In this document: positions 12,027 to 58,775 of the stretch, piece by piece | Layout of the letters: each line of letters begins with the position of its first letter | Numbering within the stretch: position 1 is the first letter of the stretch | Assembly (NCBI GenBank): GCA_050953885.1 | Contig: JBMNNJ010000002.1 | Location: 41,586 to 105,585 of the forward strand | Direction of reading: 5' to 3' | DNA: 64,000 bases | Origin: Patescibacteria group bacterium | GTDB taxonomy: Bacteria; Patescibacteriota; Microgenomatia; 0-14-0-10-38-17 | Position numbers and translations under genes: made by a program | Notes under the pieces: generated by a model | Seen by the model: only the letters and a program-made list of their open reading frames with translations | Told to the model about the DNA's origin: nothing | Databases searched by the model: none

Positions 12027-12287
12027 AGTATAAATATAAATTTAAAATTTAAAATTCAAAATGCAAAATCAGTAATCCGTAATATGTAATAAAAAAGCGC
12101 AAAAAGCAAAACGCAAAGAGTAAAACCTAAATCAAAGCTCAAAAATATTTTTAACTTTTGGTTTTGGTCTTTGAGCTTGGTTTTGCACTTTGCTCTTTGC
12201 ACTTTAATCTTGTTTTCTCACGAGTTACTAACTTTTTACATTTTACATTACATTCAATCCGCCAGCTAGCGGGTTGACTTTTAAATT

Positions 12288-12704: not shown

Positions 12705-12750
12705 GAAATTTTATCTCTTAAATTATAAATAATTTTATCTAAACAATAAA

Positions 12751-12965
12751 TAAACTCAAATGTTAAATCGCAAAACGCAAAACTACATGTTAAAACTCAA
12801 ATCTACAACGCAAAACTTAAAAGACAAAAACAGAATTACAATTTAGAAATATAAATATTAAGCCCTAAAGTTTTTTAGTTTTAAGTTTTAACATGTAGTT
12901 TTGAGATTTGAGTTTTGCGTTTTGAGCTTTAACTTATACTTTTGACTTTTGAATTTTAAATTTCC
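12751..12965. repeat. long imperfect palindromic MITE-like element, family 1 (conserved loop gacaaaaacagaattacaatttagaaata.aaatattaagccctaaagttttttag)
   Basis: Arms built of caaaac/ctcaaa words (cgcaaaacgcaaaactacatgttaaaactcaaatc versus gatttgagttttgcgttttgagc) lie between rpsL and rpoC. Confidence 0.6.
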
Positions 12966-13015
12966 TAAATTAGCGCATGTCAATTATACCATGCCTTTCG
13001 TCTTAGTCTTTCGTC

Positions 13016-21372: not shown

Positions 21373-22674
21373 TTACTTAAAAACTGAAATCGCCTTTTCA
21401 ATTTCATCTTTCTTTAAATTTCCCATCAAACCAATATTTATCTTTGAAAAATCAAAAATTTCTTGCACTAAACAGTCAATCTCTTCTTTTGATATTTTTT
21501 CAACTATCCTCATATATTCCTCCGGAAGTCGGATTTTCCTACCCGCAAGCTCCTCTCCTACCACCCAATCGGCAATTTGTAACGGCGTTTCAAAATTGAA
21601 ACAAACAATATTCCTTCGATATAAATTCTTTGCTTTTTGCGTTTCCTTCTTTTGGACGCCATTTTTCTTAATCTTTTCCAACTCTTTCTTAATTAATTGC
21701 ATTGAGAGAGAAAGATTTTCTTTAGCCACCGAACCACCGATAATAAATTCTCCCATAAAAGGAAAGTCTACGGTATCGCTACCAACAGAATAAACTAAAT
21801 TATTATTTTCTCTCAAAAGCTTTGCTAGCCTTGATGAAGGGCTATCGCCGACAATAAAACTTAAAAGCCCCAACCAAAGAAGCTTTCTCATTTTTACTTC
21901 CTTAAAGCCAAAGGTGGGAAAAGTGAGGAGAAATCTAATTTGGTTTGATTTTTCTTTCTGATAATAAGTTAAAAAATCAGAGTAAGTAATTTTTAAACGA
22001 GAAGGTTCTTCAATTTTTTCAGTGTTTTTCTTCTTACCAAAACTGTTTTTAATTTTCATCATTATTTTCCTTTGATTAAAATTACCCGCAACAGAAAGAA
22101 TCATATTAGCTGGTTGATAATATTTATTTTTCCAAGCTAAAAGTTTTTCCCTCGTAAACGATTGGATTGTTTCTGGTCTGCCCAAAGAATCATATTGATA
22201 AACGTTCTCGCCTCTCATTCTTCTTAAAAACATTTTTTGTTTAAATTTGTTCTGGGGTTCCGACCAGTAACCAAAATATTCGCTTAAAACAATTTTCTTA
22301 ACATGATTAAGCCGCGAGGCAGGCAGGGTAGGAAGGAAAACAAGCTCATATAAAAAATCAAGCGCCTTTTCTCCTTTCTCAGAAGGAGAGTCTACATAAT
22401 AAACAGTACTAAACCTACCAGATTGCGCATTTTGATACATTCCCTCAAATTCGATCGCTTCTGAAAGAAGTTCAAAGCTTTTATAATTTTTGGTCCCCTG
22501 ATGAATAAAATGCTCTAAAAAGTGAGAAATACCATTATTTTTTCTGTCTTCGTTAACGGTCCCAACCTTAACATACAGGCTGACATAAAAAGTTTTCACC
22601 GTTTTTATATTAACAAGAAACACCGTTAACCCATTGGGGAGGAGCAGTTTCCGGTAAGGAAGTTTCCTATTCAT
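21373..22674 (-). CDS. M16-family (pitrilysin/insulinase-like) zinc peptidase
   Basis: The 433 aa ORF has the inverted zinc-binding motif HxxEH (GISHFLEHFIHQGT) near its N-terminus. Its codons are visibly AT-richer than those of the ribosomal genes. Confidence 0.8.
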   Translation of the reverse strand: MNRKLPYRKLLLPNGLTVFLVNIKTVKTFYVSLYVKVGTVNEDRKNNGISHFLEHFIHQGTKNYKSFELLSEAIEFEGMYQNAQSGRFSTVYYVDSPSEKGEKALDFLYELVFLPTLPASRLNHVKKIVLSEYFGYWSEPQNKFKQKMFLRRMRGENVYQYDSLGRPETIQSFTREKLLAWKNKYYQPANMILSVAGNFNQRKIMMKIKNSFGKKKNTEKIEEPSRLKITYSDFLTYYQKEKSNQIRFLLTFPTFGFKEVKMRKLLWLGLLSFIVGDSPSSRLAKLLRENNNLVYSVGSDTVDFPFMGEFIIGGSVAKENLSLSMQLIKKELEKIKKNGVQKKETQKAKNLYRRNIVCFNFETPLQIADWVVGEELAGRKIRLPEEYMRIVEKISKEEIDCLVQEIFDFSKINIGLMGNLKKDEIEKAISVFK

Positions 22675-23006
22675 AGCACAATTTTAGCATATTCTCGCCG
22701 TATTTTCGTAACAGTGCAAGTTCTAAAAACAATGGCCACTCTCTAGACAGTTAAAACATTATAGTTACACCTTAGAGGTGAGTTTCTATTTACACCTCCG
22801 GTATTTTGCCTGCGTTTAGACCCTAGCAATCAGTAGACTATAATTACGGATACAAGAATAAAAAATAAAAGTAATTGCTCAGCTTTTACGGCAAAACTAG
22901 CCCTTAACTTATTCTGAAGTTATTCAACCCCTAAAGCTGACAAGCTTTCCAAAACCCAAAAACCTCGGGAAATCAACTAACTTTTAGCCCACGGCTTGCT
23001 TCGCCA

Positions 23007-24803
23007 TTACCAGCTACCGCCCCCTCCGCCGCCAAAACCACCACCAGATGAGCCGCCGGAGGAGCCGCCACCGGAAAACCCCGAACCCCCCGACCATGAA
23101 GATTTCCCTGACGGTGAAGAAGATAAAGCCGTGGTTGAGCTCTTGTAAAAACCGCGCCAGTCGCTATAAAAACTGGCCGCCACTGCCCCTTCAAAATAAT
23201 CGGGCGGCTTAACCCCTAAATCTGCCATCTCCTTAGCTAATTTCTCTACCACTCCCAAAGAAATGGCTAAAGGCAAGATTTCCTCTAAAAACAAATGCTT
23301 TTCGGCAATTTCTTCCCGCCATTTACTTTTATTAATATACCACTGAAGGCCTTCAATTTGGCGATAAAGAGAATATCCCCAAGCTGTCCGCCGCGGCATT
23401 GACTTCGCCATTAAAATCGTCGGCACCAAAAAGAGAAAAAACAAAACCAACGGAACGCTGCCGGCAAAAGAAATAAAAGAACTTAAGAGCAGAACAAAAT
23501 CTCCCAAAAGCATTATTATCGCTATCGTCAGCCATTTAGCCCTGACCGTCTCCGGATTACCAACAAAAATTTTCTCCTCGACTAAATTTTTATAAAGCTT
23601 TTTCTTAAATTCGGAAAGATATTTATAAAAATTATTTTTCAGATCAGACAAGGAAACTTCCTTGCTATGGGCAAATAAACTTAGCAAAAGATATTGCTGA
23701 TAATCTTTCAGCTTGTTCTTATCTTTTTCTTTCTTAATAAAAAGATAATCGGTTTTCTTGCCAATCAAACCCTTCTTTTCTGTCTTTTTAATATGCAAAT
23801 ATCCTAATCGCGCCATTTCCACAATTTCCGCCACCACATCCTGAATATCCACCTTCTCATCAATAATTGTCCCCGCTTGGGCAGGAGTCAGGTTATCAAG
23901 GGGAGAGTAAACTGTCGGTAAATAATCGCGATGAAAAAGGGGCACCGTCTCGGTTTTTTCCTCTTCGGGCTGATAATAAATATTATCGGTTAAGTATTTT
24001 TTATCACGACCTTTCTTATACCAAAAAGCAAATATTATCAAAAAAGGGGTAATCGCCGCTAAATAGCCCCAATTATCGGTTAAGAAATTAACCATTCTCT
24101 TAATTAACCCCGGAAATTTGAGCTGATTGTCTTTACTCAAGGCAACCACGATGGTAAAATCATCGCCCGGATTAAGAGAAACACTTGAAGTAAAAACCGC
24201 CTCTTGAGAGTTAAAATCACCCGTACACTGTTCTTCCTTGCTGCCAAAAGGCCCGCTAAAGCAGGCAATTTTAGTAATCGGGGCAAAGGGGGAAACAACT
24301 TTGGCGGAAGATTTTTTAATGATCGTGTCCCACTCATGACCGGTTACATTCCAATAAACCTCATCATGATCTTCATACGGCAGTAAAACTTCACTGATCG
24401 TGTATTTAATCACGTAAATATGGGGGCCGGTAATCGTTTCTTGCGGATCGCCAATTTTAAGATTAATACTTTGCCGATAGCGGCTTTCCTCATAATGATA
24501 ATCTTTGCCCATCTCGTCGGTTATGGAAACTACTTTTAAATTAGCGCGAATTGTTCTGCCGCCACTATTATAAATAACGGGGATAACCCGGAAAATCCCG
24601 TGTTTGGGAACAGAAAAATGGACACTAATTCTTTCTTCTACTGTTAAGGAAGTGTCCTGATTAACGGTAATCTCGCTGGAAAAATCCTCAATGGTATATT
24701 CCGACGATGCTACTGCCGCCGCTTCGGCAGGCAAAACTGCCAAGAAGAAAAAAGAAGAAAGAAGAAAGAAAAAAAGCAAAAAGAGTTTTTTCATCTTTAA
24801 CAA
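23007..24803 (-). CDS. DUF2207-like envelope membrane protein (signal peptide, extracellular domain, TM segments, Gly/Ser-rich C-terminal tail)
   Basis: The 598 aa ORF has a signal peptide (MKKLFLLFFFLLSSFFFLAVLPAEA), internal TM helices and a C-terminal tail SGGSGFSGGGSSGGSSGGGFGGGGGGSW, which is typical of DUF2207 proteins. Confidence 0.65.
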   Translation of the reverse strand: MLKMKKLFLLFFFLLSSFFFLAVLPAEAAAVASSEYTIEDFSSEITVNQDTSLTVEERISVHFSVPKHGIFRVIPVIYNSGGRTIRANLKVVSITDEMGKDYHYEESRYRQSINLKIGDPQETITGPHIYVIKYTISEVLLPYEDHDEVYWNVTGHEWDTIIKKSSAKVVSPFAPITKIACFSGPFGSKEEQCTGDFNSQEAVFTSSVSLNPGDDFTIVVALSKDNQLKFPGLIKRMVNFLTDNWGYLAAITPFLIIFAFWYKKGRDKKYLTDNIYYQPEEEKTETVPLFHRDYLPTVYSPLDNLTPAQAGTIIDEKVDIQDVVAEIVEMARLGYLHIKKTEKKGLIGKKTDYLFIKKEKDKNKLKDYQQYLLLSLFAHSKEVSLSDLKNNFYKYLSEFKKKLYKNLVEEKIFVGNPETVRAKWLTIAIIMLLGDFVLLLSSFISFAGSVPLVLFFLFLVPTILMAKSMPRRTAWGYSLYRQIEGLQWYINKSKWREEIAEKHLFLEEILPLAISLGVVEKLAKEMADLGVKPPDYFEGAVAASFYSDWRGFYKSSTTALSSSPSGKSSWSGGSGFSGGGSSGGSSGGGFGGGGGGSW

Positions 24804-24896
24804 CTATCATATCACGTCCAAACTTCCCTAAAAACTGCCAAATAAAACTTAATTTACTTATTCTAAAAAAGCAGTTATACCTTAGAGGTGGGTTTC

Positions 24897-24957
24897 CCCG
24901 CCACAGCGGGGTCCGCCTTTGGCGGTCCGCTCGGGGCGGATCCCGCCACGGCGGGAC
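24897..24957. repeat. 61 bp GC-rich multi-hairpin insertion (CCCGCC-N3-4-GGCGGG type) splitting an otherwise conserved promoter-proximal motif
   Basis: Copy 1 of the motif (22778-22802) is uninterrupted. Copy 2 has ccccgccacagcggggtccgcctttggcggtccgctcggggcggatcccgccacggcgggac inserted between ggtttc and tatttacacc. A related GC-hairpin block with gactatttac is found at 52822-52862. Confidence 0.6.
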
Positions 24958-25110
24958 TATTTACACCTCTGGTATTTACGCCTTTTGGTATCAGTAGACT
25001 ATATTACGGATACAAGAATAAAAATATTTTCCCGCTTTCCCCAATTCAGGGCATTTTAAAAAAGGGAAATTGCCTTTTAGCCCCTAATTTGCGACGGGGA
25101 GCAAGGTTAA

Positions 25111-26178
25111 TCAGCTTTGGGCGTTGTTTGGCGCCGACTTAAAAATTATTTCCAAAATTGCTTCCGGGGAAGTTGGCGAGGCAACAAAGTTTGTTGTTTT
25201 GCTAAAGGCCTCTATTGCCTGAAAAATTTCGGGGTTATCCCAATTAGCCTCATTTTTAGTTAATGGCTCATCTTTGCGCCAGCTAAACAAAACTGCCGCC
25301 TTAACTGGCCAATTTCTTAAAGATTCCAGACCTTCCCTAAACCAAAAATAAGGATTTTCCAAGGCAGTACCCACTTCGGCGATAATCATCGGTTTTTTAC
25401 CCTTAGTGAGCCTTTGTAATTCTTTAAAATCTGGCCCAAAAAGCTGTTTAAAAGAAAAATTGGGGTTGAAGTGACGGGGTTCCAGCAGGTGCTCGGCATC
25501 AATAAGATTAACTCGGTGTTTGTTATAACCGTCTAAACCAACAATGTCTACCCATTCGTCTCCGGGATAATAAGGGGCAATTGCCGCCGCCCCAACCGTA
25601 ACATTGGGAGAAAAAACAAATTTAACGTTGGGAGCATAATGGCGAAAAAGGCCAACCAGATAACGCCAACTTCCCACAAAGTCTTCGGCCGTATTTATTT
25701 TTGCTCCGTGAGCAAACCAATTACCATTCATTTCATAAAAAGGCCGAAGCAAAACTGGTCCCGGTAAATTAGCAAAATCCTTGGCCCTCTTGACTAAAGA
25801 GTCTTCAAACATCATTGTTTTTGACAAGAGAAACTCACCATTAAAACCTTGTGGAGTAAAAGAAAGCATCGGTAATTTTCCCATTTCCAAAATTTGCCCA
25901 AGACAAGCTAGCCCCCAAGAAGATTCTAAACCATCTTCAAAAATATTAACAATAGAAGAGCAAGCGGGCCTCAAAAGGCTTAAATCATTTCTATCAGGCG
26001 CCATCCCAAAGACTAAGGAATCTGGTTGCCGAAGTTCATAATTGGGTTCGCCCACTCTCCCCAAGCCCTCTAATCTACTTAGCATATCGGGGCCAAATTG
26101 GGCGGTTACTCCGATTGCGCTGGCTCCCAAGGTAAGCATTTTTAAAAATTCTCGTCGGGAGGCGCTTTGCTCTTTCAT
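25111..26178 (-). CDS. Tat-secreted glycoside hydrolase (GH26/mannanase-like fold suspected)
   Basis: The 355 aa ORF has a twin-arginine signal (SRREFLKMLTLGASAIGVTA). The RPFYEMNGNWF motif resembles the GH26 catalytic-acid region. Family assignment is tentative. Confidence 0.5.
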   Translation of the reverse strand: MKEQSASRREFLKMLTLGASAIGVTAQFGPDMLSRLEGLGRVGEPNYELRQPDSLVFGMAPDRNDLSLLRPACSSIVNIFEDGLESSWGLACLGQILEMGKLPMLSFTPQGFNGEFLLSKTMMFEDSLVKRAKDFANLPGPVLLRPFYEMNGNWFAHGAKINTAEDFVGSWRYLVGLFRHYAPNVKFVFSPNVTVGAAAIAPYYPGDEWVDIVGLDGYNKHRVNLIDAEHLLEPRHFNPNFSFKQLFGPDFKELQRLTKGKKPMIIAEVGTALENPYFWFREGLESLRNWPVKAAVLFSWRKDEPLTKNEANWDNPEIFQAIEAFSKTTNFVASPTSPEAILEIIFKSAPNNAQS

Positions 26179-26874: not shown

Positions 26875-27083
26875 GAAAAATTAAACGGCTAAATTGTTAA
26901 ATTGCTAAATTGATAGAAAAGCATACTGGATACAACAGGATTTATAACAGGATTGAACGGGATCTTTTATCCTGTTTTACCCCGTAAACATCCTCTTTAA
27001 TCCCGTGTGCTTTGCCCCTTATTCGCTCATTCGTGTTTATTCGTTTCCCATTCGTGTCAATTCGCGTTTCAACAGTTTAACTG

Positions 27084-27797
27084 TTATTTTGCCAGTCTTG
27101 CCCGGACCACCAAACGGCGCAGATATGTTCCCGGCGGCACGCAAGTGACAAGGCTGATATAAGAGTCATCATAATGCTGTTCTAAAATCGCCAAATCATC
27201 AGGGGGAAGCTCAACCATTTCCGACACTAAGAACCGATAGCGCACGCCGTCAAAGTCAACCAAAATCTCATCGCCAATTTTTAAAGTCGGTAAGGTGGAA
27301 AAAATCGTCATATAATCTTTGGGGTTAAAAAACTGCGGCAAAACCGAATGGCCAAAAATAACCGCGTTACCGTAATTACCCGGATAAGCGGTTCCCCCAT
27401 ACTGGACTAAATTGCGGGAAAGATCCTCTCCGCCCACCTCCACCGTAGCATTAAAAACCCCAAGCTTGGGAATACTCAAATTGTAATAACGAATTTTGCC
27501 AACATTATTTTGCTGAAAGCCTACCGGCAACCAATTTTGAATTTCGGCCAAGTTTTGGTCGGCCACCCCCACCACGCCAAAAAGAGGCAAGCCTTTTAAA
27601 TCATTAGCATCCCTAAAATAAGGAGTGATAATTTTTTTCTCTCTAAATTGAGAAGCGGAGAGCTGATAGGAAATAATCGGCCAGCCGGCATAAGTAATAA
27701 TCATCAACCCTAGGGTAAAGATTAAAACCGGCAAGGTCCGCAAAATTTTTCCCAAGCGGCTGGGCCTTTTTGGTGGAGCTTTAAGATAAGAATACAT
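27084..27797 (-). CDS. sortase-family transpeptidase (the true start is probably the internal Met at about 27797; the ORF extends to 27863 through a repeat module)
   Basis: An N-terminal TM anchor (LPVLIFTLGLMIITYAGWPIISY), the catalytic His region (VIFGHS), the TLxTC motif (ISLVTCVPPGTYLRR) and a conserved Arg. Confidence 0.8.
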   Translation of the reverse strand: MYSYLKAPPKRPSRLGKILRTLPVLIFTLGLMIITYAGWPIISYQLSASQFREKKIITPYFRDANDLKGLPLFGVVGVADQNLAEIQNWLPVGFQQNNVGKIRYYNLSIPKLGVFNATVEVGGEDLSRNLVQYGGTAYPGNYGNAVIFGHSVLPQFFNPKDYMTIFSTLPTLKIGDEILVDFDGVRYRFLVSEMVELPPDDLAILEQHYDDSYISLVTCVPPGTYLRRLVVRARLAK

Positions 27798-28028
27798 GGT
27801 TAAGATACACGAATTTACACGAATGAGAAACGAATAGACACGAAAAATAAACTCAAAACGCAAATGGCAAAACTACATGGTAAATCTCAAACCACTTTAA
27901 AATGTAGTTTTTCAGATTTAAGTTTTGAGTTGTAGTTTTGATCCGCCAGCTGGCGGATTGCGATTTAACATTTGAGTTTATCTTTTGTCTCCTTGTATCT
28001 TAATATCTTAGTATCTTAGTATCTTTTC

Positions 28029-32053: not shown

Positions 32054-32459
32054 TTAAAACACGAATTTACACGAATAGGAAACGAATGAACGCGAACGAG
32101 CAAATAATATAAAAATAAATCAAATATCAAATATCAAAGCGCAAAACCAAGTTCAAAGACCAAAACCATAAACTCAATCCGCCAGCTGGCGGACAGAATC
32201 TAACTGATTCTGAATCAAGTTCAGAATGACACTAATCGTGACCGTCATTCTGACGAAAGTCAGAATCGAATAGCTAAAAGTTAAAATTCAAAAGTAAAAA
32301 TTAAAATTAAAAAGTAGAGCAAAAAAAACTTTTAACTTTTGACTTGCAATTTTGAATTTTGACTTTTTAATTTTGACTTTCCAAACCGATTTAGAAACGT
32401 ACACGTACCACCACCTATTTGGTATAAATTGCCACTGACGGACGATTCGTGAGCCTCCC

Positions 32460-33012: not shown

Positions 33013-33349
33013 AAGAAACTAAATTGTTAAATTGCTATACTGTTATACTGTTAAATTGTTAAAACACGAATTCACGCGAATTGGAAACGAATTAACACGA
33101 AAAATAAACTTAAAACGCAAATGGCAAATGGCAAAACTATCCACCTAAAATGGCGGATCCGCCGTCTGAGGCGGACATGTTAAATCTTAAATCTTTCTTA
33201 GAGCTTAAAAGTGTTTTTCAGATTTGAGTTTTGAATTTTAGTTTTGCGTTTTGCGATTTAACATTTGAGTTTATCTTTTGTTTTTGAATTTTGATTTTTG
33301 CATTAATTTAGTGTCTTAATATCTTTATATCCTAATTTCTCCCTCTTTG

Positions 33350-36083: not shown

Positions 36084-36240
36084 AAGGTTGGATATTAAAC
36101 ATTTATTTTTATTTATTAAGTAAGCACACGGGATTAAACAGGATGTTTACAGGATAAAACAGGAAAAAAATCCCGTTCAATCCTGTAATAAATCCTGTTG
36201 TATCCTGTGTGCTTTGCGCCCACCATTCGCTCATTCGTGT

Positions 36241-37959
36241 TCATTCGTTTCCCATTCGTGTCAATTCGTGTTTCCATTCGCCTATCTTCCTCACCACTTC
36301 ATTATATTGTAGTATTTCTACTTTCTCTTTGTCTCTTTCTTTATACTCTATTGAATCGCCTGTTTTTGGGGAGACAATCAAACGAACAGGAATGCCGACT
36401 AAATCCGCGTCGGCAAATTTTTCCCCCGCCGAAACCTCCCGACGATCATCATAAAGAACTTCAATGCCATCTTTTAAAAAACGGTCAAAAATTGCTTCCG
36501 CTTTTTCAAAAGCGCCTTCTAAGGCGATCAGATGAACCTGATAAGGAGCAATACTCTTAGGCCAAATAATTCCCTTTTTATCATGATGAATTTCTACCAC
36601 CGTGGCCATTGTTCGTCCCAACCCAATACCATAACAACCCATATAGAAAGGCTTTTCTTTGCCCTTTTTATCAATAAAATTCGCTCCTTTCATAAGACGG
36701 GTATAGTGATAACCAAGCTCAAAAATATGGCCCACTTCAATCCCTTTAATTTCCTGAAGTTTTCCTTGACGACATTGGGGGCAAAAATCACCCTCTCGCG
36801 CGCAAGTAATATCCGCCAGTAAAGAGTAGGAAAAATCTCGGCCGTAATTAACATTAACCGTGTCGGTTTTGGCTTCTTTTTGGCCGCCAATAAAATTTTT
36901 TACCATTTTTAAACCTAAATCGCCTACATAAACCACTCCTTGATGTCCCCAGGAATGAACCCAACCATGTTTAGTGCCTATTTTCTCTAAATCTTCTGCC
37001 GTTGCCGGTTCAAGGCTTTCCACCCCCAAAACTCGCTTCAGCTTTGCTTCGTTTACTTCCTGATCACCGCGCAGGGAAGCAATAATTATTCTTCCTTTCT
37101 CGTCTTTATAAACAACATTTTTCAAAAATCGCCAAAGCGGTTGGCGGTAATGCTTTACATTATCCTCCATGGTGCAAACCCATTCCGGCTGGGGAATAAT
37201 TTCTAAAGGTTTTTCTTCTTCGTCAGGATTAAGGGGCGCAAGATAGGCTTGCGCTTTCTCCAAACTGGCCTGATAAGAACATTGGCGGCATTTTAAAACC
37301 GCATCTTCTCCATTTTTATCAGGAACCACAAATTCATGGCAACGCTCGCCGCCAATATAACCGCTGTCAGCTTCAACTACCAAAAAAGGCAACTCTAAGC
37401 TCTGGAAAATTTTTTCATAAGCTTGCCAAAAAAACCGGTAGGTTTCGGCAAAATCTTTCTTATTTTGGTCAAAAGAATAAGCGTCTTTCATGATAAATTC
37501 CCGCACCCGCAACAGCCCGCCCCGAAAACGCCGTTCGTCACGAAATTTGGTGGAAAATTGGTAAAGAAAAAAAGGCAAATCTTTATAGGAAAGCTTTTTC
37601 CGGCGCACCAGATCCACAAACATTTCCTCCGCCGTTCCTCCTAAGGCAAATTCCGCTCCTGACCGGCTCTTAACCTTCATCAACTCAAAAGAAACTGACG
37701 TTGTCCTTTTCGTTTCCTGCCATAAAGAAAGAGGGTGTAAAATCGGGGTGATCATCTCCTGCGCCCCAATCGCCTCCATTTCTCTTCTGATTACTTCTTC
37801 TATTTTTTGATGGACGCGCCAACCTAAGGGAAGAAAATAATATTCTCCGGCTGAACTTTCCTCAATAAAGCCGCCGCGCCGTAAAAGCTGGTGGCTTGCC
37901 ACCACTGCCTTTTTAAACGGCTCCTTGCTGGTTTTGCCAAAAAGTTTTGAATAACGCAT
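36241..37959 (-). CDS. proS: prolyl-tRNA synthetase (bacterial type); its last 15 codons read through an ATTCG repeat module
   Basis: The 572 aa ORF has class II motifs and a ProRS N-terminus (MRYSKLFGKT..., FRDERRFRGGLLRVREFIMKDAYSF). The C-terminus KIGEWKHELTRMGNE is encoded by the repeat ...ccattcgtgtcaattcgtgtttcc. Confidence 0.9.
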   Translation of the reverse strand: MRYSKLFGKTSKEPFKKAVVASHQLLRRGGFIEESSAGEYYFLPLGWRVHQKIEEVIRREMEAIGAQEMITPILHPLSLWQETKRTTSVSFELMKVKSRSGAEFALGGTAEEMFVDLVRRKKLSYKDLPFFLYQFSTKFRDERRFRGGLLRVREFIMKDAYSFDQNKKDFAETYRFFWQAYEKIFQSLELPFLVVEADSGYIGGERCHEFVVPDKNGEDAVLKCRQCSYQASLEKAQAYLAPLNPDEEEKPLEIIPQPEWVCTMEDNVKHYRQPLWRFLKNVVYKDEKGRIIIASLRGDQEVNEAKLKRVLGVESLEPATAEDLEKIGTKHGWVHSWGHQGVVYVGDLGLKMVKNFIGGQKEAKTDTVNVNYGRDFSYSLLADITCAREGDFCPQCRQGKLQEIKGIEVGHIFELGYHYTRLMKGANFIDKKGKEKPFYMGCYGIGLGRTMATVVEIHHDKKGIIWPKSIAPYQVHLIALEGAFEKAEAIFDRFLKDGIEVLYDDRREVSAGEKFADADLVGIPVRLIVSPKTGDSIEYKERDKEKVEILQYNEVVRKIGEWKHELTRMGNE

Positions 37960-40660: not shown

Positions 40661-40918
40661 AAAAAATAAATTACAAGTATATTACTCTCCTCATTTATTA
40701 TTACAATCTGACTCCGCCGATATAAAACGCGAAAATTAAATCAAAGAGTAAAGATCAAAGTGTAAAACCAAGTTCAAAAACCAAAACCAGAAGCTTAACA
40801 TTTTTGAACTTTGATTTAGGTTTTGATCTTTGATATTTGATTTTTGATTTATTTTTATATTATTCGCTCATTCGCGTCTATTCGTTTTCCATTCGTGTCA
40901 ATTCGTGTCGGCAGTTTT

Positions 40919-41971
40919 TCACCACATCGGCAAATATTCCTTCACATTCTCGGTGGTGATCTCAAATCTTTCCCCCTCGCCGCTGACCACTTTCTTGGCA
41001 ATCTGGCGGCAAATGCCCTCAAGATTGCGTTTTAGCGTCCGCACCCCGGCGTCATAGCCCAAGGGGCGAACAATTTTTGGCCAAACATCAGGGGTAAAAA
41101 CCACCTGTTGAGGTTCCAAACCCGCCTCGGCAATTGCCTCCGGCAGAAGATAATTTTTACCAATAATAATTTTTTCCTCGTCAGAATAAGAGGGCATCGA
41201 GATAATCTCTAAACGATCTAGCACTGCTTGGGAAATATTGGTGGTATTGTTGCAGGTGGTAATAAAAAACGCCTCGGACAAATCAAAAGGATAATCAATA
41301 AAATAATCGGTAAAGGCGTTGTTTTGCTCCGGGTCTAAAAGCTCCACCAACACCCCCATAATGGAACTACGCGCCTCCTCGGCAATCCGGTCAATTTCAT
41401 CTAAAAGAATAATCGGGTTAGCCGCTTTTGCCTGCCGTAAACCCTTAATAATTTGCCCGGGCTGGGCTTGAGGAAAAACCCGCGACCGACCGCGCAAATA
41501 AAAGGGCTCTTCAATGCCGCCGAAAGGAATTCTCACCATTTTTCTTCCTAAGGCTTCGGCAATCGCCGTTGCCAACGTTGTTTTCCCCGTTCCCACCAAG
41601 CCCACCAAACAAAGAATCGGCGCTCGCGGCTTTTCTCCCTTATCCTTCTTTAGCTTCATCACCGCCAAATATTCCAAAACCCGTTCCTTAATTTCTTCCA
41701 AGCCATAATGATACTTATCCAAAACTCTTCGCGCCTCGCCAAGATCCAAATTATCCTCGGTTTTTTCCCGCCACGGTAAATTCACAATCCACTCCACATA
41801 ATGGCTAATCGCCTCATATTCTTGGGAAAACTGGCCAAATTGGAGGGAAAGGCGCAACCTTTCTATTGCCAAAAGCGTTCTTGAAGAAAGATCGGCCGGT
41901 AAGGGAGCTTCCTTAACCTGTTTGGCTAACTTTTCAATTTCCTGGTCAACTTTGGGCTCGGCAGTTTTCAT
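40919..41971 (-). CDS. Lon-like AAA+ ATPase lacking the protease domain (truncated Lon, or stand-alone AAA+)
   Basis: The 350 aa ORF aligns to the Lon segment from ...DHYGL.evKeRIlEYLAV through Walker A (GLVGTGKTT), Walker B (ILLDEIDRI) and the sensor regions (YTREAGVR-like GYDAGVRTL). It ends at ...KEYLPMW and is followed by repeat modules and then the UDG gene. Confidence 0.75.
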   Translation of the reverse strand: MKTAEPKVDQEIEKLAKQVKEAPLPADLSSRTLLAIERLRLSLQFGQFSQEYEAISHYVEWIVNLPWREKTEDNLDLGEARRVLDKYHYGLEEIKERVLEYLAVMKLKKDKGEKPRAPILCLVGLVGTGKTTLATAIAEALGRKMVRIPFGGIEEPFYLRGRSRVFPQAQPGQIIKGLRQAKAANPIILLDEIDRIAEEARSSIMGVLVELLDPEQNNAFTDYFIDYPFDLSEAFFITTCNNTTNISQAVLDRLEIISMPSYSDEEKIIIGKNYLLPEAIAEAGLEPQQVVFTPDVWPKIVRPLGYDAGVRTLKRNLEGICRQIAKKVVSGEGERFEITTENVKEYLPMW

Positions 41972-44449: not shown

Positions 44450-45900
44450 GCGCGGTTAAAAAATGAAGCCTTCTTTTCTTTTAAGAAGCCCAATTTTTAC
44501 TCCTTATTTTTTAAGCTTTTCTAAGTTTAACCTAAAATTCCCCAAAAAACAAGAGGGAAATGTGCGGTGTCCAGGACATGCTATACACTTCATGAGGTTT
44601 GGGTATGAGGAATATGTAAGAAGAGTGTTAAAATTGGTGGGTGTTAATTTTGAGAGTGTAGTAAAGGGGGTGAAAAAGCATGAGTCCTGGAATCCATGGA
44701 ATCCGGATAGACTACAAGGAATTAAGAAAGATTAATCCAGAAGCAGCCAGACAAACAGTGATTGAGTATCTAAAGACTAATGGCCACAACATTGCTGATA
44801 CCGCCAGGGTTTTTAGGGTCAACAGGACAGTGGTTTATGACATCTTGGCAAAAAGCAAAGAGGGCAATCTTAAAGACAGACCCAAGATACCAAAACACCA
44901 GCCCAACAAGACACCAGCCAAGACAGAAGGTAAAGTCATTAAGGCCAAGAACAAAACCCACCTGGGGCCAAAAAGATTATCACGCTACCTTGAGAAACAT
45001 GAAGGGATTCTTGTTCCTCCAGGAACAATCAGGCACATTCTAAGGAGGAATAAAGACAGGCTTACTTACAAACTAAAATCAAACAAGAGAAGAAAACAAC
45101 CAAGGGAGTTTGTTGACTGGTATTCAGCTAAACCTTTTGAGATTGTCCAAATGGATATCAAATTCATTAGGGATCAGAAAGCCCTGACTAAAAAGCAAAT
45201 TATTCATCTTAACCAATATGATATTCCCAACTATCAATGGGGAGCCCTGGATGTTAACTCTAGGTTTAAACTAATTGCTTATTCCAAGGAAAAATCTTGG
45301 ACTAATGGTTTGTGTTTTTACCTTTGGACTATTTCCTGGTTAAGGTCTCATGGGGTTAAATCAGAGATTGCCTTTACTGTTGATAATGGTGAGGAATTTG
45401 GGGGTAGATCCTGGTTGAAGGTCAAAGAGTTAAGAAAACTGATCAGGGGTTTTGGCTGTAGATTAATCCAGAACCACAAAGGTCATCCTGAGGAGAATGC
45501 TCATTTGGAAAGAAGCCATAGAACCGATGACGAAGAGTTCTACATTCCCAGGGTCCTACAGATTAAGAGCAAAAAAGATCTCTTGAATGAGGCCCTGGGT
45601 TACATTTATTACTACAACAATGTCCGGGAACACTCATCCTTAGACTATCAAATACCCTACCAATATCTGAAAATGCAATTACCAGAGATTGATGATAACA
45701 TACGTTATGTACAACCGATTATCCTTGATGATGTCTCGGTAAAACTAGGCCCTTGGAGTGGATACAATGTCTTGGCACATCACCGAAAAAAGAAAGCAAA
45801 AGAAATTCTCAACCCTCGCTTACGCCTGAACCACGATAAATTTTGGGAGGATTAAAGTTTGTGGCCGTTGGGGCCTGAGAAAAAGAAGGGAAACGGCCTC
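44450..45900 (+). mobile_element. IS element insertion between rpsO and the DHH-like gene (ends not mapped)
   Basis: An intact transposase interrupts the conserved nusA-infB-(rbfA)-rpsO-pnp gene string. The 3-prime end of the transposase overlaps the stop region of the adjacent minus-strand gene by about 47 nt. Confidence 0.55.
44680..45855 (+). CDS. DDE (integrase-core, rve-type) transposase with N-terminal HTH; IS family uncertain (IS481/IS30-like single-ORF type)
   Basis: The 391 aa ORF has an HTH (TVIEYLKTNGHNIADTARVF), a DDE triad context (QMDIKF, ALDVNSR, ENAHLERSH) and a C-terminal NNVREHSSLDY motif. It is the only long plus-strand gene in a minus-strand operon. Confidence 0.85.
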   Translation: MSPGIHGIRIDYKELRKINPEAARQTVIEYLKTNGHNIADTARVFRVNRTVVYDILAKSKEGNLKDRPKIPKHQPNKTPAKTEGKVIKAKNKTHLGPKRLSRYLEKHEGILVPPGTIRHILRRNKDRLTYKLKSNKRRKQPREFVDWYSAKPFEIVQMDIKFIRDQKALTKKQIIHLNQYDIPNYQWGALDVNSRFKLIAYSKEKSWTNGLCFYLWTISWLRSHGVKSEIAFTVDNGEEFGGRSWLKVKELRKLIRGFGCRLIQNHKGHPEENAHLERSHRTDDEEFYIPRVLQIKSKKDLLNEALGYIYYYNNVREHSSLDYQIPYQYLKMQLPEIDDNIRYVQPIILDDVSVKLGPWSGYNVLAHHRKKKAKEILNPRLRLNHDKFWED

Positions 45901-49400: not shown

Positions 49401-49419
49401 AAAAAATTAAATTTAAATT

Positions 49420-49449
49420 AATATTAAAAAAGGTGGGTCGCCCCACCTT
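49420..49449 (-). terminator. rho-independent terminator-like hairpin on the minus strand, just upstream of nusA
   Basis: The minus strand reads aaggtgggGCGAcccacctt (8 bp GC-rich stem, 4 nt loop) followed by TTTTTaatat. Confidence 0.5.
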
Positions 49450-49509
49450 AAAACCTCCCTTTCTGCGAAAATTCTTTCCCTACTTTTCTTTCATCGTCCC
49501 CAAAAATTC

Positions 49510-49895
49510 TTAAGTTAAGATTGTTTTTAATTTAACACAACCACCCCTTAAAGTCAAACACTGTGTACTGGCTGACCACATCGGCCTGCCTGCCGGCAAG
49601 GCAGGTAACACTTTAAAGAATCTTTCTTGAGCATACCCTAAGGGTGTTTGGTAATCAAGGGCTTGATGAGGACGATGAGCACGGTCTTCAATAAACCATT
49701 TAGTTAAAAAAAGATTAGCCTGACTAATGTTATCAAGCCCTACCAGGCTTGGGGACAACCATTCTTCCTGAAGAGTCCGGTTGAATCTTTCTGAGGAAGC
49801 ATTATCCTTAGGCTGTCTTACCCAAGAAGAGACTGGGGTGATATTAAGATCTTGACAGGCTTTGGTAAAGTGTCCGGCAGGAAAGTTTCTTTGGC
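49510..49895 (-). pseudogene. 3-prime remnant of an IS481-like transposase (integrase-core C-terminus only)
   Basis: The minus-strand translation reads ...KACQDLNITPVSSWVRQPKDNASSERFNRTLQEEW...HRPHQALDYQTPL, the C-terminal rve region. There is no N-terminal HTH or first Asp. Confidence 0.6.
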
Positions 49896-50185
49896 CATTT
49901 TAAATTAGAAGCCGGAGGCCTAAATCGTTTTAAATTACTTGGAGAACTGATTGAATACATTTACCAACAAGGATATTATTAAATAAACGAATTCACTCAG
50001 TTCTTAAAATGACGCCAACAGAAAAAAGAAAGGGGATGACTGTCTAAAAAATTAGGTACTTGACATTTTTATGCCCTCTAATTCTTCTTTATCAAATATT
50101 CCCCACCCCTTCAAAACCAGCGGTGGCTTTAATTTTGAGTTTTTGTTTGAATTTATTCTATCCATTGTTTTATTTTTGGTAAAAC

Positions 50186-52714
50186 TTATAAAGAAATTAT
50201 AAGCGCATCAGGGGATAGTTCCGAAGGCAGTTTAGCAACTAACTCAATTTTTCCTACTTTAGAAAAATTCCTAATGTCATCTAAAAATGGTCTTAGAAGA
50301 TTCTGCGTCTCAGAATCGCAAATAATTAAAAGTAAAGGAAATGCCCCCCCCAATCTTATGTTTCTCTCTGTCTTGCCTTTTCTGATTTTTTCTAGTATAG
50401 AAAGAGCTGTCTCTGCCCCTTTCTTTATCTTATTATTGATCTTGGTCTTTTGGGCATCCAGAGAGAACCAAGAACAAAGATGAATACTTGAGACTCTTTC
50501 GTGTTGGTAAAAAAACCCTTTGTCTTTAGCGGACCTTAATCTTAAACCTGTGGGAGATTGTTCACAATAACTATGATACATCTCCTCTGTGATATGTGGC
50601 AAAAAGGGCGCCGCCATTTTAAGAACAGCTAGATATGCATGATATAAAGCATACTGGGCAGAGCGTCGACGTTCCTCGTCTTGTCCATAAATTCTCCCCT
50701 TAGCTATTTCTAAATAATCATCACAAAAATCTCTCCAGAAAAATTCCTCAAATATTTGTTTTGCCTTTCCAAATTCATATCTTTCAAATTCGCGTGCTAT
50801 CTTGGCAGTCGTTTCTTGAACTTTGGACAAGATCCAGCAATCAAAAGCCTCAAGAACTTCTTGGGCTATTTCCTCCTGGGGGTTAAAATCCTGTAAATTA
50901 GAAATGGCAAATTTCCCCGCGTTATATAATTTTGTCACTAATTTCTCACCCTTTTTTATTTCCTTTTCCTCAAAATAAACATCTTTGCCCAATGCTCCTC
51001 CAGACATGGCATAACGGATAGCGTCAGCTGAATATTGATCAATCAATTTTTCCGGGTCGTACTGGCCTCCCCCCGTTTTTTTACTTATTTTCTCCCCCTT
51101 TTTAGCCAATATATGACCGGAAATCATAATATCTTTCCAAGGAACTTCATTATGAAGTAGAAGCCCCATCAAAATAGTATAAGTCGCCCAGGTTCTAATA
51201 ATATCGTGAGCCTGAGGTCTCATTGACATAGGATACATCTTGCCGGTTAAAGAACCATTAAGAGGATGGTTGTTATTAATATCGGGTGTTAAAGCAGAAG
51301 TAAACCATGTGTCTAGAACACCCGTTTCTGGCTGGATATTCTTCGACCGACAGCGAGAGCAATTTCTTTCTTTTTTATCTAGTCGAGGATCAATTGGTAA
51401 CTCTTCGGGTTTCGGCAGTATAATTTCCTCGCAGTCTTGGCAATAAAAAAGAGGGATAGGAATACCGAAAAATCGCTGTCTTGAGATACACCAATCCCAT
51501 CCAAGTCCTTCAACCCAATTAAGATATCTTTTTTTCATATGCGGAGGATACCAATTAATTTGTTCAGCGGCGGTCAGAAGCTGAGGCTTCATTTCTAAAA
51601 TTTTAACAAACCATTGAGTAATAGGAATAATTTCAATCGGTTCTCCGCAGCGCTCATGAACACTAATTTCATGGGTGATGGGCTTTTCTTCTTTAATTAA
51701 TCCCTTTTTTCTCAACTCGCTTACTAATATCCTTCTTCCTTCCACAACAGATTTTCCTTCCATCCCGGAGATACCAACCTCGGTGGTAAACCTTCCTTTT
51801 TTATCAAGAATGATTCTTTCTGGAAGATCGTGAATTCTTGCCCAATAAACATCAGTGCTATCTCCATAGGTGCAACACATTACCGCTCCTGTTCCTTTTT
51901 CCATGGAAACTTTATCATCAGCAAGAACCTTAACTTTTGATCCCAAGGGCGTTTCTACTTCGGTTCCCACGATATCTTTGTATCTTTTGTCATCAGGATG
52001 GATAAAGACAGCCACGCAGGCAGGAAGAAGTTCAGGCCTCGTGGTAGCAATTATTAACTCGCCTCTACCGGGGTTTCTAAAAATTAAATCATAAAAAATC
52101 CCTGAGCACTCCTTATCTTCAACTTCTGCCTGGGCGACCGATGTTTGGCATTCAGGACAATATAGAGCTGGGGATTCTTTCTTGTAAATTAGCCCCTTTT
52201 CAAAAAGCTTTATAAAGTTCTCTTGAGATAATCTTTGTACTTCTGAAGAGATTGTAGAATATTCTAACCGTAGGTCCCATCTAAAACCAAGTTTTCGAAA
52301 CAAATCTTCGTATTTCGGTACGAAACGAGCAACAACTTTAAGACATCTTCGAGTAAATTCCTCCGTCCCAACCACAGAAGGATCTATATTCTCTTCCTTT
52401 TCAACTAATCTCTCGGTAGGAAGACCATTGTTATCAAGACCAAAGGGATAACGAACATTAAATCCCGCCATTCTTCGGTAAGCGGCTATAACCTCTGCCT
52501 GAGTGTAGGAAAAAACATGTCCCAAATGAAGCTTTCCGGAAATAGTTGGAGGCGGAGTATCAATAGTAAAAAGCGATCCAGAGGCTTCTGGATTAAAACG
52601 AAAAATTTCTTTCTGTCCCCAAAATTTTTGCCAATACGGTTCTTGAGAGTGATGGTTATATCTTTCGGAAAATTCTGTTCCTCTTCTCATAATTCTTTCT
52701 TCATCCATAATCAC
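50186..52714 (-). CDS. valS: valyl-tRNA synthetase, archaeal/eukaryotic-like type
   Basis: The 842 aa ORF reads IDTPPPTISGKLHLGHVFSYTQAEVIAAYRRMAGFNVRYPFGLDNNGLPTE, which matches the archaeal-type ValRS N-terminus. The WCISRQ motif and KISKK (a KMSKS variant) are also present. Its codons are strongly AT-rich compared with the flanking operons. Confidence 0.8.
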   Translation of the reverse strand: MIMDEERIMRRGTEFSERYNHHSQEPYWQKFWGQKEIFRFNPEASGSLFTIDTPPPTISGKLHLGHVFSYTQAEVIAAYRRMAGFNVRYPFGLDNNGLPTERLVEKEENIDPSVVGTEEFTRRCLKVVARFVPKYEDLFRKLGFRWDLRLEYSTISSEVQRLSQENFIKLFEKGLIYKKESPALYCPECQTSVAQAEVEDKECSGIFYDLIFRNPGRGELIIATTRPELLPACVAVFIHPDDKRYKDIVGTEVETPLGSKVKVLADDKVSMEKGTGAVMCCTYGDSTDVYWARIHDLPERIILDKKGRFTTEVGISGMEGKSVVEGRRILVSELRKKGLIKEEKPITHEISVHERCGEPIEIIPITQWFVKILEMKPQLLTAAEQINWYPPHMKKRYLNWVEGLGWDWCISRQRFFGIPIPLFYCQDCEEIILPKPEELPIDPRLDKKERNCSRCRSKNIQPETGVLDTWFTSALTPDINNNHPLNGSLTGKMYPMSMRPQAHDIIRTWATYTILMGLLLHNEVPWKDIMISGHILAKKGEKISKKTGGGQYDPEKLIDQYSADAIRYAMSGGALGKDVYFEEKEIKKGEKLVTKLYNAGKFAISNLQDFNPQEEIAQEVLEAFDCWILSKVQETTAKIAREFERYEFGKAKQIFEEFFWRDFCDDYLEIAKGRIYGQDEERRRSAQYALYHAYLAVLKMAAPFLPHITEEMYHSYCEQSPTGLRLRSAKDKGFFYQHERVSSIHLCSWFSLDAQKTKINNKIKKGAETALSILEKIRKGKTERNIRLGGAFPLLLIICDSETQNLLRPFLDDIRNFSKVGKIELVAKLPSELSPDALIISL

Positions 52715-52878
52715 AATTTAGGAATAGCATTTGGTAAATTTTATTATAATAGTCATTACATATCAAGAGAGTGTACTGGCTGACCACATCGGCCTGCCTG
52801 CCGGCGAGGCAGGCCGATGTATCTTGGCGCGGGCGCAAACCGCGCGGACTATTTACCCGCCGTAGGCGGGCCTGTTCC

Positions 52879-58673: not shown

Positions 58674-58775
58674 TTTTACTTTTAGCTTAATAAATAATAA
58701 AGGTTAAAAAACAAATTTTCAAGAGAGAAAACAAATAAACACGAACTGAACGAATTAAAAACGAATGGATACGAA

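What the first reader, a model, noticed from the sequence alone, without database searches (positions are those of the whole stretch)
24897..24957. A mobile 61 bp GC-rich multi-hairpin element has inserted into a conserved regulatory motif
Copy 1 of the promoter-proximal motif reads ggtgagtttctatttacacc uninterrupted. Copy 2 reads ggtgggtttc + 61 bp of consecutive CCCGCC-N3-4-GGCGGG hairpins + tatttacacc. The same GC-hairpin block type, with gactatttac at its end, recurs at 52822-52862 next to valS. The palindrome catcggcctgcc-tgccggcga-ggcaggccgatg flanks valS on both sides. So there is a second, GC-rich miniature mobile element family, distinct from the AT-rich modules and the REPINs. The insertion may modulate expression of the DUF2207 gene.
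Basis: seen in the sequence. Interest (0 to 1): 0.55.

Follow-up and report, generated by a model that had tools for sequence, protein, structure and literature searches.

The report
Mobile 31-nt double-hairpin repeat, inverted dimer
The 61-bp GC-rich block upstream of the DUF2207 gene is real: it is two inverted copies of a 31-nt double-hairpin repeat that is present or absent at unrelated sites in closely related strains and turns up in very distant ultra-small (Patescibacteria) bacteria, so it behaves like a tiny mobile DNA element whose moving enzyme is unknown.

Summary
Positions 24896-24956 form an 80% GC block of four perfect short hairpins in a 35% GC spacer, inside a motif that is uninterrupted at 22777-22796.

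The block is an inverted dimer of a 31-nt two-hairpin unit, T-CCCGCC-NNN-GCGGG-A + TCCGCC-TTT-GGCGGA.

A sister strain (L007; flanks 97% identical) lacks exactly these 61 nt and has no target-site duplication. More distant relatives have one hairpin at the same spot.

The same 31-nt unit lies at unrelated sites elsewhere:
- It sits between pilC and a pilin gene in a close relative, where the window's own population has the precise empty site.
- It sits inside the T-loops of tRNA-Thr and tRNA-Leu 3'-end remnants in distant Patescibacteria (RNase J only 34% identical).

So a dispersed, insertion/deletion-polymorphic miniature element is well supported.

Several points are not supported or remain open:
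- The direction of the event at this locus is unresolved.
- A regulatory role for the motif is untested.
- No transposase was identified.
- The "valS-flanking palindrome" is a separate repeat, probably insertion-sequence (IS) ends, marking a valS translocation.
- The 52.8-kb hairpins are not clear family members.

The element is closest to REP/REPIN elements and yeast mitochondrial GC clusters, but it fails some of their defining features.

The parts
24896..24956 (.). 61-nt GC-rich block: inverted dimer of the 31-nt double-hairpin unit. The two units share base 24926.
   Evidence: Sequence; 80% GC; two full-length covariance-model matches of 50.4 and 43.9 bits. Absent from L007: exact indel 24895-24955 against L007, or 24896-24956 against the paralogous motif.
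24896..24926 (+). Unit R: CCCCGCCACAGCGGGG-TCCGCCTTTGGCGGT
   Evidence: 50.4 bits, E 1e-10
24926..24956 (-). Unit L: TCCCGCCGTGGCGGGA-TCCGCCCCGAGCGGA
   Evidence: 43.9 bits, E 5e-9. Its first hairpin is the one present alone in L008, L009 and L133.
24896..24911 (.). Hairpin 1, CCCCGC-caca-GCGGGG
24912..24926 (.). Hairpin 2, (T)CCGCC-ttt-GGCGG(T)
24926..24940 (.). Hairpin 3, TCCGC-tcggg-GCGGA
24941..24956 (.). Hairpin 4, TCCCGC-cacg-GCGGGA
24885..24890 (.). Left arm (GAGGTG) of the weak outer hairpin whose loop holds the block
   Evidence: Folds. The empty-site hairpin in L007 is only -4.1 kcal/mol and not significant.
24964..24969 (.). Right arm (CACCTC) of the outer hairpin
24870..25024 (-). 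Copy 2 of the roughly 100-nt conserved spacer module (TTATTCTTGTATCCGTAATATAGTCTACTGAT...GAGGTGTAAATAG[block]AAACCCACCTCTAAGGTA), 75-230 nt upstream of the DUF2207 start
   Evidence: Alignments A1, A3
22762..22866 (-). Copy 1 of the same module, uninterrupted, upstream of the M16 peptidase gene. It contains the 20-mer at 22777-22796 and serves as a paralogous empty site.
23007..24794 (-). DUF2207 membrane protein gene. Its start lies 101 nt downstream of the block.
   Evidence: Pfam; exact protein on record; distance
25111..26178 (-). GH26-like gene. Its stop codon lies 154 nt upstream of the block on the coding strand.

Best explanation
The block is two inverted copies of a 31-nt GC-rich double-hairpin repeat: T-CCCGCC-N3-GCGGG-A followed by TCCGCC-TTT-GGCGGA. 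This repeat is a small, low-copy, non-autonomous mobile element of Patescibacteria.

Shown:
- Near-identical units lie at unrelated loci in related and very distant genomes.
- At two unrelated loci, close strains differ by exactly one unit or one dimer.
- There is no target-site duplication.
- The units occur in either orientation.

Inferred:
- Units are cut or copied and pasted as structured single-stranded DNA by an enzyme acting in trans. This would resemble the way HUH/Y1 transposases move IS200/IS605 ends and REPINs. I put that specific enzyme class at about 25%.
- Insertions land preferentially in exposed loops of existing hairpins (two tRNA T-loop remnants, and the GAGGTG/CACCTC hairpin here).
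- Single hairpins, as in L008 and L009, are decay products formed by slippage between the 8-nt direct repeats GTGGCGGG inside the dimer.

At this locus the dimer turns a weak hairpin into a very stable one in the spacer between the GH26 and DUF2207 genes. Any effect on DUF2207 expression is unproven and probably indirect.
For: Anatomy:
- Two full-length model matches in inverted orientation share one base.
- The whole block can also fold as one long hairpin.

Locus polymorphism:
- L007 has a DUF2207 protein 96% identical and upstream DNA 97% identical.
- It reads TAAATAGT|AACCCACC where the window has the 61 nt.
- L126, which is 98% identical to the window, has the full block.
- L008, L133 and L009 have only CC(C/T)GCCGTGG(C/T)GGG at the same position.

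Second, reciprocal polymorphism:
- L088 and L129 carry one 31-nt unit between pilC and a pilin gene.
- Seven contigs of the window's own population, including one from the same JGI sample as L001, have the precise empty site GTAATTTG|TTATTTG with otherwise near-identical flanks.

Other unrelated sites:
- A unit lies inside the T-loop of a duplicated tRNA-Thr 3' end (L128).
- A unit lies inside a tRNA-Leu 3' remnant (L127, L130, L132), in opposite orientations relative to the GGTT flank.
- A diverged unit lies between rpsB and tsf in L128.

Breadth:
- The L132 host is a Parcubacteria-side organism whose RNase J is 34% identical to the window's.
- Its unit nevertheless matches the window's at about 27-28 of 31 positions.

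Other points:
- No TSD at any of four sites.
- The 8-nt direct repeat that would generate the singlet is at offsets 7 and 52 of the block.
Against: - Copy number looks low. Full units occur at only one locus in this 64-kb window and at none in 63 kb of further contigs from the same population. Only five or six distinct loci came from one strict metagenome scan.
- No candidate transposase was found. The window ORFs screened with Pfam (most of those of 100 aa or more) include only an IS481-like DDE gene and a remnant of one, and no Y1/HUH gene.
- The whole genome could not be searched.
- The direction of change at this locus is unresolved, because the outgroups have a singlet.
- No conserved flanking tetranucleotide was found.
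- The association of AAATAGT with GC hairpins is weak: 2 of 9 occurrences against a 4.6% background.
- The stems are invariant in sequence and only one base pair covaries. A conserved protein-binding or RNA motif would also produce that pattern.
- The distant copies were found with a pattern that fixed the stems, so their similarity is partly ascertained.
Confidence: 0.65

Rival explanations
1. The double hairpin is a functional host motif rather than a selfish element. It would be a conserved binding site for a Patescibacteria protein, or an RNA end-protecting, processing or insulating structure. In this view it is recruited or lost at sites where it is useful, and the indels arise by ordinary slippage and recombination.
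For: - Stem sequences are almost invariant across hosts with 34% identical RNase J.
- Units lie in spacers next to highly expressed genes: pilin, tRNAs, rpsB-tsf.
- A related 16-nt palindrome with the same stem, TCCGCCAGCTGGCGGA, is common and positionally conserved in this lineage.
- The L008 variant changes C to T on both arms, which keeps G.U pairing on the gene-sense strand only.
Against: - Units sit in dead tRNA fragments, where no function is expected.
- They occur in both orientations.
- Close strains do without them at both polymorphic loci.
- There is no U-tract on either strand, although the genome has canonical terminators such as 49432-49447.
- Both strands fold equally well.
- No Rfam family matches.
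Confidence: 0.2
2. The block grew in place. An ancestral single hairpin at this site expanded by local duplication or template switching into four hairpins. The L007 allele is a palindrome-instability deletion, and nothing moved between loci.
For: - Outgroups have one hairpin at exactly this position.
- The block contains an internal 8-nt direct repeat and is self-similar.
- Long palindromes are known to be deletion-prone (general knowledge).
Against: - It cannot explain the same 31-nt two-hairpin sequence at the pilC-pilin spacer, in tRNA remnants and in a distant class.
- It cannot explain the exact 31-nt presence/absence at a second locus.
Confidence: 0.1
3. The block or its absence is an assembly artefact.
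For: Three Logan contigs break at the same base inside the block. Contigs around this gene are often short.
Against: - Identical block in independent assemblies from JGI and Logan samples, and in the 98% identical L126.
- The empty junctions are contiguous sequences in an NCBI MAG contig and in seven JGI contigs.
Confidence: 0.03

Closest known systems
REP elements and REPINs (REP doublets forming hairpins) mobilised by RAYT/TnpA-REP Y1 transposases (PMC3116915, PMC3333891, PMC8266576)
   Same: - Short GC-rich extragenic palindromes.
- An inverted pair of units that folds into one long hairpin.
- Precise presence/absence without target-site duplication.
- Singlets that look like decayed doublets.
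   Different: - The unit here is itself two different tandem hairpins (31 nt) and appears to insert alone.
- Copy number seems low rather than tens to hundreds per genome.
- No GTAG/CGTC tag (PMC3733652).
- No RAYT gene seen.
- Found in Patescibacteria, where the literature searches run here turned up no such family.
Yeast mitochondrial mobile GC clusters, e.g. GC42 (PMC4478555)
   Same: - 30-60-nt GC-rich hairpin clusters in AT-rich spacers.
- Presence/absence between close genomes.
- Stems more conserved than loops.
- Merging of clusters into composite arrays.
- Mechanism unknown.
   Different: - Those are flanked by short AG/ACT direct repeats taken as target duplications; none are present here.
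- Organellar versus bacterial genomes.
- No sequence similarity was tested or expected.
IS200/IS605-family single-strand 'peel and paste' transposition (background in PMC3333891; details from established knowledge)
   Same: Subterminal hairpins, no terminal inverted repeats in the classical sense, no target duplication, and seamless donor sites.
   Different: - Those elements encode TnpA and insert 3' of a fixed tetra- or pentanucleotide.
- Here there is no gene.
- The left flanks differ between sites: TAGT, TTGT, TTCT, TTGC, TTTC.
Classical MITEs
   Same: Tiny non-coding element with 6-nt inverted termini (TCCCGCC...GGCGGA), dispersed and polymorphic.
   Different: No target-site duplication, no matching autonomous IS, and far smaller than typical MITEs (100-400 bp).
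IS elements that target REP/BIME palindromes (PMC1525189)
   Same: The idea of insertion into the loop or centre of a pre-existing palindrome.
   Different: There the inserted DNA is a full IS and the target is a REP. Here a 31-nt hairpin pair lands in T-loop-like hairpins.

Membership tests
REP / REPIN (RAYT-associated) | Short (20-40 nt) GC-rich imperfect palindrome in extragenic DNA | tested here: met
   31-nt unit of two perfect hairpins in AT-rich spacers
REP / REPIN (RAYT-associated) | Replicative unit is an inverted pair of REPs forming one long hairpin | tested here: inconclusive
   The window block is such an inverted pair. Single units are what is present or absent at the pilC-pilin site and in the tRNA remnants.
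REP / REPIN (RAYT-associated) | High copy number within a genome (tens to hundreds) | tested here: inconclusive
   One locus in 64 kb and none in 63 kb of further contigs of the same population. The whole genome was not available.
REP / REPIN (RAYT-associated) | Conserved GTAG or CGTC tetranucleotide at one end (PMC3733652) | tested here: not met
   Left flanks are TAGT, TTTC, TTGT, TTGC, TTCT and TGGT
REP / REPIN (RAYT-associated) | A RAYT (Y1 HUH transposase) gene in the genome, flanked by the REPs | not testable with these tools
   None among the window ORFs that were screened. The rest of the genome could not be read.
MITE | Target-site duplication flanking the element | tested here: not met
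   Empty versus filled sites: TAAATAGT|AACCC, GTAATTTG|TTATTTG, GGTTC|GAATCC, GGGTT|CAACT
MITE | Terminal inverted repeats shared with an autonomous IS in the same genomes | tested here: inconclusive
   Termini are 6-nt inverted repeats. The flanks of the only transposase gene in the window (44680-45855) show no such ends.
Yeast mitochondrial GC clusters | GC-rich palindromic cluster in an AT-rich spacer with presence/absence between close genomes | tested here: met
Yeast mitochondrial GC clusters | Flanking AG/ACT direct repeats (PMC4478555) | tested here: not met
   No direct repeats at any of four junction pairs
IS200/IS605-type insertion signature | No TSD, subterminal hairpins, seamless empty site | tested here: met
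IS200/IS605-type insertion signature | Insertion 3' of one fixed tetra- or pentanucleotide | tested here: inconclusive
   AATAGT abuts GC palindromes at 24961 and 52853, and lies near one in L128. Other sites differ, and the in-window enrichment is weak (2 of 9 against 4.6%).
Intrinsic (Rho-independent) terminator | GC-rich stem immediately followed by a U-tract on the transcribed strand | tested here: not met
   The block is followed by AAACCCACC on the minus strand and ACTATTTAC on the plus strand. It is not called by the scan. A canonical example exists at 49432-49447.
Any Rfam RNA family | Match at the family's gathering score | tested here: not met
   Only tRNA-Cys in the window. The permissive scan of 22600-25200 gave one chance miRNA hit of 21 bits against a gathering score of 103.

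The most novel reading that the evidence does not exclude
A Patescibacteria-wide mobile element of only 31 nt, consisting of two tandem GC hairpins. It would be moved without target duplication by an as yet unidentified trans-acting enzyme, and it would home preferentially to the single-stranded loops of existing hairpins, including tRNA T-loops. That would make it a structure-targeted miniature transposon in genomes usually regarded as streamlined and poor in mobile DNA.
Probability: 0.25. Interest if true: 0.7.

Novelty: new variant of a known kind. Interest (0 to 1): 0.5.

Why it matters
Patescibacteria (CPR) genomes are tiny and are generally treated as streamlined. A dispersed 31-nt element shared by classes as far apart as Microgenomates-like and Uhrbacteria-like organisms would add three things.

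- It would be a new source of strain-level variation.
- It is a practical cause of broken metagenome assemblies: contigs end inside the block.
- It gives a handle for finding the enzyme that moves it.

If loop or T-loop targeting is real, it is an unusual target rule. For annotation, it warns that GC hairpins in these AT-rich spacers need not be terminators or regulators.

Tried and rejected
- **Genome-contig scan** with the GC-only pattern CCCGCCRYRGCGGGRTCCGCC. Only L088 was useful.
- **Viral-contig scan**: nothing.
- **Rfam**, at gathering and permissive thresholds: no family.
- **Promoter/terminator scan** of 22500-25300: counts near the shuffle expectation for promoters, and the block is not called as a terminator.
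- **Strand asymmetry** as a sign of RNA-level selection: both strands fold equally, -61.5 versus -64.9 kcal/mol.
- **Covariation**: only the closing pair varies (C-G to T-A), and it does not exceed the shuffles.
- **AAATAGT or GACTATTTAC as a target tag**: 2 of 9 AAATAGT occurrences are followed by GC-rich DNA, against a 4.6% background. This is suggestive only.
- **Site 2 as a copy of the same element**: rejected as a clear member (9.9 bits). Its hairpin plus TAAATAGT plus CCGCGCGG is already present in L150, which lacks valS there.
- **The valS-flanking palindrome as part of this family**: rejected. It is a direct repeat bounding the inserted valS segment, next to a weak rve_3 remnant.
- **More distant orthologous spacers** (69% relatives, L134-L141): unalignable, built from other modules.
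- **P0009**: not on record.
- **Outer hairpin as a strong pre-existing structure**: the empty-site hairpin in L007 is weak, -4.1 kcal/mol with z = -1.2.

Full report
**Observation**

The 20-mer GGTGAGTTTCTATTTACACC occurs once, at 22777-22796. At 24887-24967 the same motif is split: GGTGGGTTTC, then 61 nt, then TATTTACACC.

The extra 61 nt (24896-24956, boundary ambiguous by one base) are 80% GC in a spacer that is otherwise 35% GC. They fall in the longest >=80% GC island of the 64-kb window.

They consist of four perfect hairpins placed end to end. The region folds far better than dinucleotide shuffles, as RNA on either strand (-61.5 and -64.9 kcal/mol; z = -5.8 and -6.6) and as DNA.

**Context**

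- The window comes from a Patescibacteria genome of the Microgenomates type. The exact DUF2207 protein is on record as 'Patescibacteria group bacterium', and homologues are named Shapirobacteria or Woesebacteria.
- Almost all genes are on the minus strand.
- The block lies in the 316-nt spacer between a GH26-like gene (25111-26178) and the DUF2207 gene (23007-24794). It is 154 nt after the GH26 stop and 101 nt before the DUF2207 start.
- The split motif is part of a roughly 100-nt module. The module also lies uninterrupted in the next spacer, upstream of the M16 peptidase gene, and is conserved at both places in relatives.
- On the coding strand the motif forms a weak hairpin, GAGGTG...CACCTC, and the block sits in its loop.
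- Whether the module is regulatory is unknown. The consensus scan gives nothing.
- Reading the sequence directly, extended -10-like boxes abut both start codons: TGATATGAT at 24814-24806 and TGCTAAAAT at 22689-22681. That suggests near-leaderless transcripts. In that case the module and the block would lie upstream of the promoter rather than in a 5' leader. This is inference only.

**Anatomy**

The block is two copies of a 31-nt unit in inverted orientation, sharing base 24926:
- 24896-24926 (+): CCCCGCCACAGCGGGG-TCCGCCTTTGGCGGT
- 24926-24956 (-): TCCCGCCGTGGCGGGA-TCCGCCCCGAGCGGA

Each unit is two tandem hairpins. A covariance model built from seven units finds full-length matches in the window only at these two places. 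The block can alternatively fold as one long hairpin, in the manner of a REPIN.

**The same locus in relatives**

| Contig | Relationship to the window | State at the site |
|---|---|---|
| L126 | 98% identical DNA | Identical 61-nt block |
| L007 | DUF2207 protein 96% identical; upstream DNA 97% identical | Lacks exactly 61 nt: TAAATAGT\|AACCCACC, no duplicated flank |
| L008, L133, L009 | DUF2207 protein 91%, 91% and 88% identical | One hairpin only, CC(C/T)GCCGTGG(C/T)GGG, at the same position |

So three states exist at one nucleotide position. The block contains an 8-nt direct repeat, GTGGCGGG, at offsets 7 and 52. Slippage between the two copies would leave just such a singlet.

Ancestral dimer, ancestral singlet and ancestral empty site each need two events. 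The direction of change at this locus therefore cannot be decided.

**Copies elsewhere**

One strict metagenome scan returned seven loci.

- **pilC-pilin spacer (L129, same site as L088).** This contig carries the same AT-rich spacer modules as the window. One 31-nt unit lies between pilC and a pilin gene.
  - The window's own population has a PilC in the same 90% cluster, with an NCBI accession close to that of the window's DUF2207 protein.
  - Seven contigs carrying that PilC, one from the same JGI sample as L001, show the precise empty site GTAATTTG|TTATTTG. The flanks are otherwise near-identical.
  - This is a second, reciprocal presence/absence difference at an unrelated locus. It is exactly 31 nt and has no target duplication.
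- **tRNA-Thr remnant (L128).** One unit lies inside the T-loop of a 25-nt duplicate of the 3' end of the adjacent tRNA-Thr: GGAGGTTC[unit]GAATCCTCTCCTTGGCT.
- **tRNA-Leu remnant (L127, L130, L132).** One unit, in the opposite orientation, lies in the T-loop of a tRNA-Leu 3' remnant: GGGTT[unit]CAACTCCCTCCACCTGCA.
- **rpsB-tsf spacer (L128).** A diverged unit lies between rpsB and tsf.
- **L131.** At 60% GC, this hit is doubtful.

The host of L132 is on the Parcubacteria side of the phylum (best named RNase J hit: Uhrbacteria, 75%). Its RNase J is only 34% identical to the window's. Even so, the units match at about 27-28 of 31 positions. That includes features the search pattern did not fix: the completion of hairpin 2 and the closing pairs.

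**Interpretation**

Four facts are best explained by a small non-autonomous mobile element:
- the same 31-nt sequence at unrelated loci;
- both orientations;
- precise presence/absence at two loci between close strains;
- copies sitting in functionless tRNA fragments.

The absence of target duplication and the hairpin ends recall single-strand HUH/Y1 transposition (IS200/IS605, RAYT-REPIN). No such gene was seen among the window ORFs screened with Pfam, the genome could not be searched, and no fixed flanking tag exists. The enzyme is therefore a guess, at about 25%.

At three of four sites the unit lies in the loop of an existing hairpin, just after GGTT. This could reflect a targeting rule, or simply tolerance of loop insertions. 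The fourth site is not a hairpin.

Copy number appears low.

**Rivals**

- *Conserved host motif (protein site or RNA structure).* This would explain the invariant stems and the family resemblance to the common TCCGCCAGCTGGCGGA palindromes. It fits poorly with copies in dead tRNA fragments, with both orientations, with dispensability in sister strains, with the lack of a U-tract, and with equal folding of both strands.
- *Purely local growth of a palindrome.* This cannot explain the dispersed copies.
- *Assembly artefact.* This is excluded by concordant independent assemblies of both alleles.

*Site 2 (52826-52874).* On the coding strand this reads CCCGCCTACGGCGGG-TAAATAGT-CCGCGCGG..., directly after the racemase stop.
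- L150 (racemase 90% identical) has the same three pieces but then runs straight into the nusA leader.
- The hairpin and the TAAATAGT junction therefore predate the local rearrangement.
- They score poorly against the unit model.

*The valS-flanking palindrome.* In the window, valS plus a weak integrase-core (rve_3) remnant ORF (49510-49758) has been inserted after CCGCGCGG.
- The inserted segment is bounded by two direct copies of GTGTACTGGCTGACCACATCGGCCTGCCTGCCGGC (49563-49605 and 52770-52819).
- The 'palindrome flanking valS' is therefore a separate repeat, probably IS ends.

**Comparison with known systems**

The closest known systems are REP/REPIN elements and yeast mitochondrial GC clusters.
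- The element shares with them its GC-rich hairpins in AT-rich spacers, its polymorphism and the formation of dimers or arrays.
- Against REPs, it lacks the GTAG/CGTC tag.
- Against GC clusters and MITEs, it lacks the flanking direct repeats.
- High copy number and an associated RAYT gene could not be shown.

I therefore do not file it as a member of any of these. I rate it a new variant of a known kind. The literature searches run here returned no report of such a family in Patescibacteria.

Noticed in passing
window, most intergenic regions; e.g. 2483-2547, 27021-27085, 36225-36289, 40862-40926, 56616-56680; also 12743-12973, 58771-59010: Spacers are built from AT-rich modules with 7-8-nt periodicity (e.g. 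ATTCGCTCATTCGYRTNNATTCGTTT; TTTTGAG/TTTTGCG runs). They recur many times in both orientations and also occur in related contigs (L088, L129, L154).
   Followed up: no
window 4321-4336, 27942-27957, 32178-32193; variants 2438-2453, 12258-12273, 33158-33175: A 16-nt perfect palindrome, TCCGCCAGCTGGCGGA, with the same stem as hairpin 2 of the unit, sits in the middle of several spacers. It is also present in relatives down to 69% protein identity (L088, L126, L134, L137, L138, L151).
   Followed up: partly
window 49401-52878: valS lies between the racemase gene and nusA only in this lineage. L150 has racemase followed directly by nusA, and L151 has a small RNHCP gene between them. The inserted segment is bounded by two direct repeats (49563-49605, 52770-52819) next to a weak rve_3 transposase remnant (49510-49758).
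   Followed up: partly
window 44680-45855 (+): Intact IS481-like transposase gene (HTH + rve_3) on the opposite strand to its neighbours. Its ends were not defined.
   Followed up: no
window 4596-5750 and 5936-7219 (-): Two ORFs with no Pfam match lie between rpsJ (7745-8053) and rplC (3303-3953), interrupting the S10 ribosomal protein operon. Sizeable module-filled spacers separate other ribosomal protein genes.
   Followed up: no
L134-L141, about 330 nt upstream of the DUF2207 gene: In the 69%-identity relatives this spacer is made of different modules (GTCATCCTGAACTTGATTCAGGA-type). A roughly 24-nt unit is present in some samples and absent in others.
   Followed up: no
L127 about 395-435 (tRNA-Leu remnant): A second GC-rich hairpin insertion of about 39 nt (GCCGTACCTATCGGTAGACAGGTACCGGCAGGCAGGCCT) interrupts the same tRNA remnant. 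It is absent from L130 and L132. It shares GGCCTGCCTGCCGG with the window's valS-flanking repeat, which may be chance.
   Followed up: no
L149 about 1385-1425 and 3732-3772: Two copies of a nested-hairpin module, GGCGCGCAATATTTA[C/T]CCGCCTC[T/G]GGCGG[G/A]AATTGCGC. It resembles window site 2 in inverted orientation relative to the racemase gene.
   Followed up: no
L002, L005, L006 (first base of each): Three Logan contigs from different runs all begin at the same base inside the 61-nt block (ATCCGCCCC...). This suggests a graph branch there, from another allele or another copy.
   Followed up: no
window 49432-49447 (-): Canonical intrinsic terminator, GGTGGGGCGACCCACC + TTTTTT, upstream of nusA. 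It shows that the genome does use stem-plus-U-tract terminators.
   Followed up: no
window 62335-63264 (+) versus tRNA-Cys 62337-62410: The mechanical ORF for the PEGA/SH3 protein overlaps the tRNA-Cys gene, so its true start must lie further downstream.
   Followed up: no
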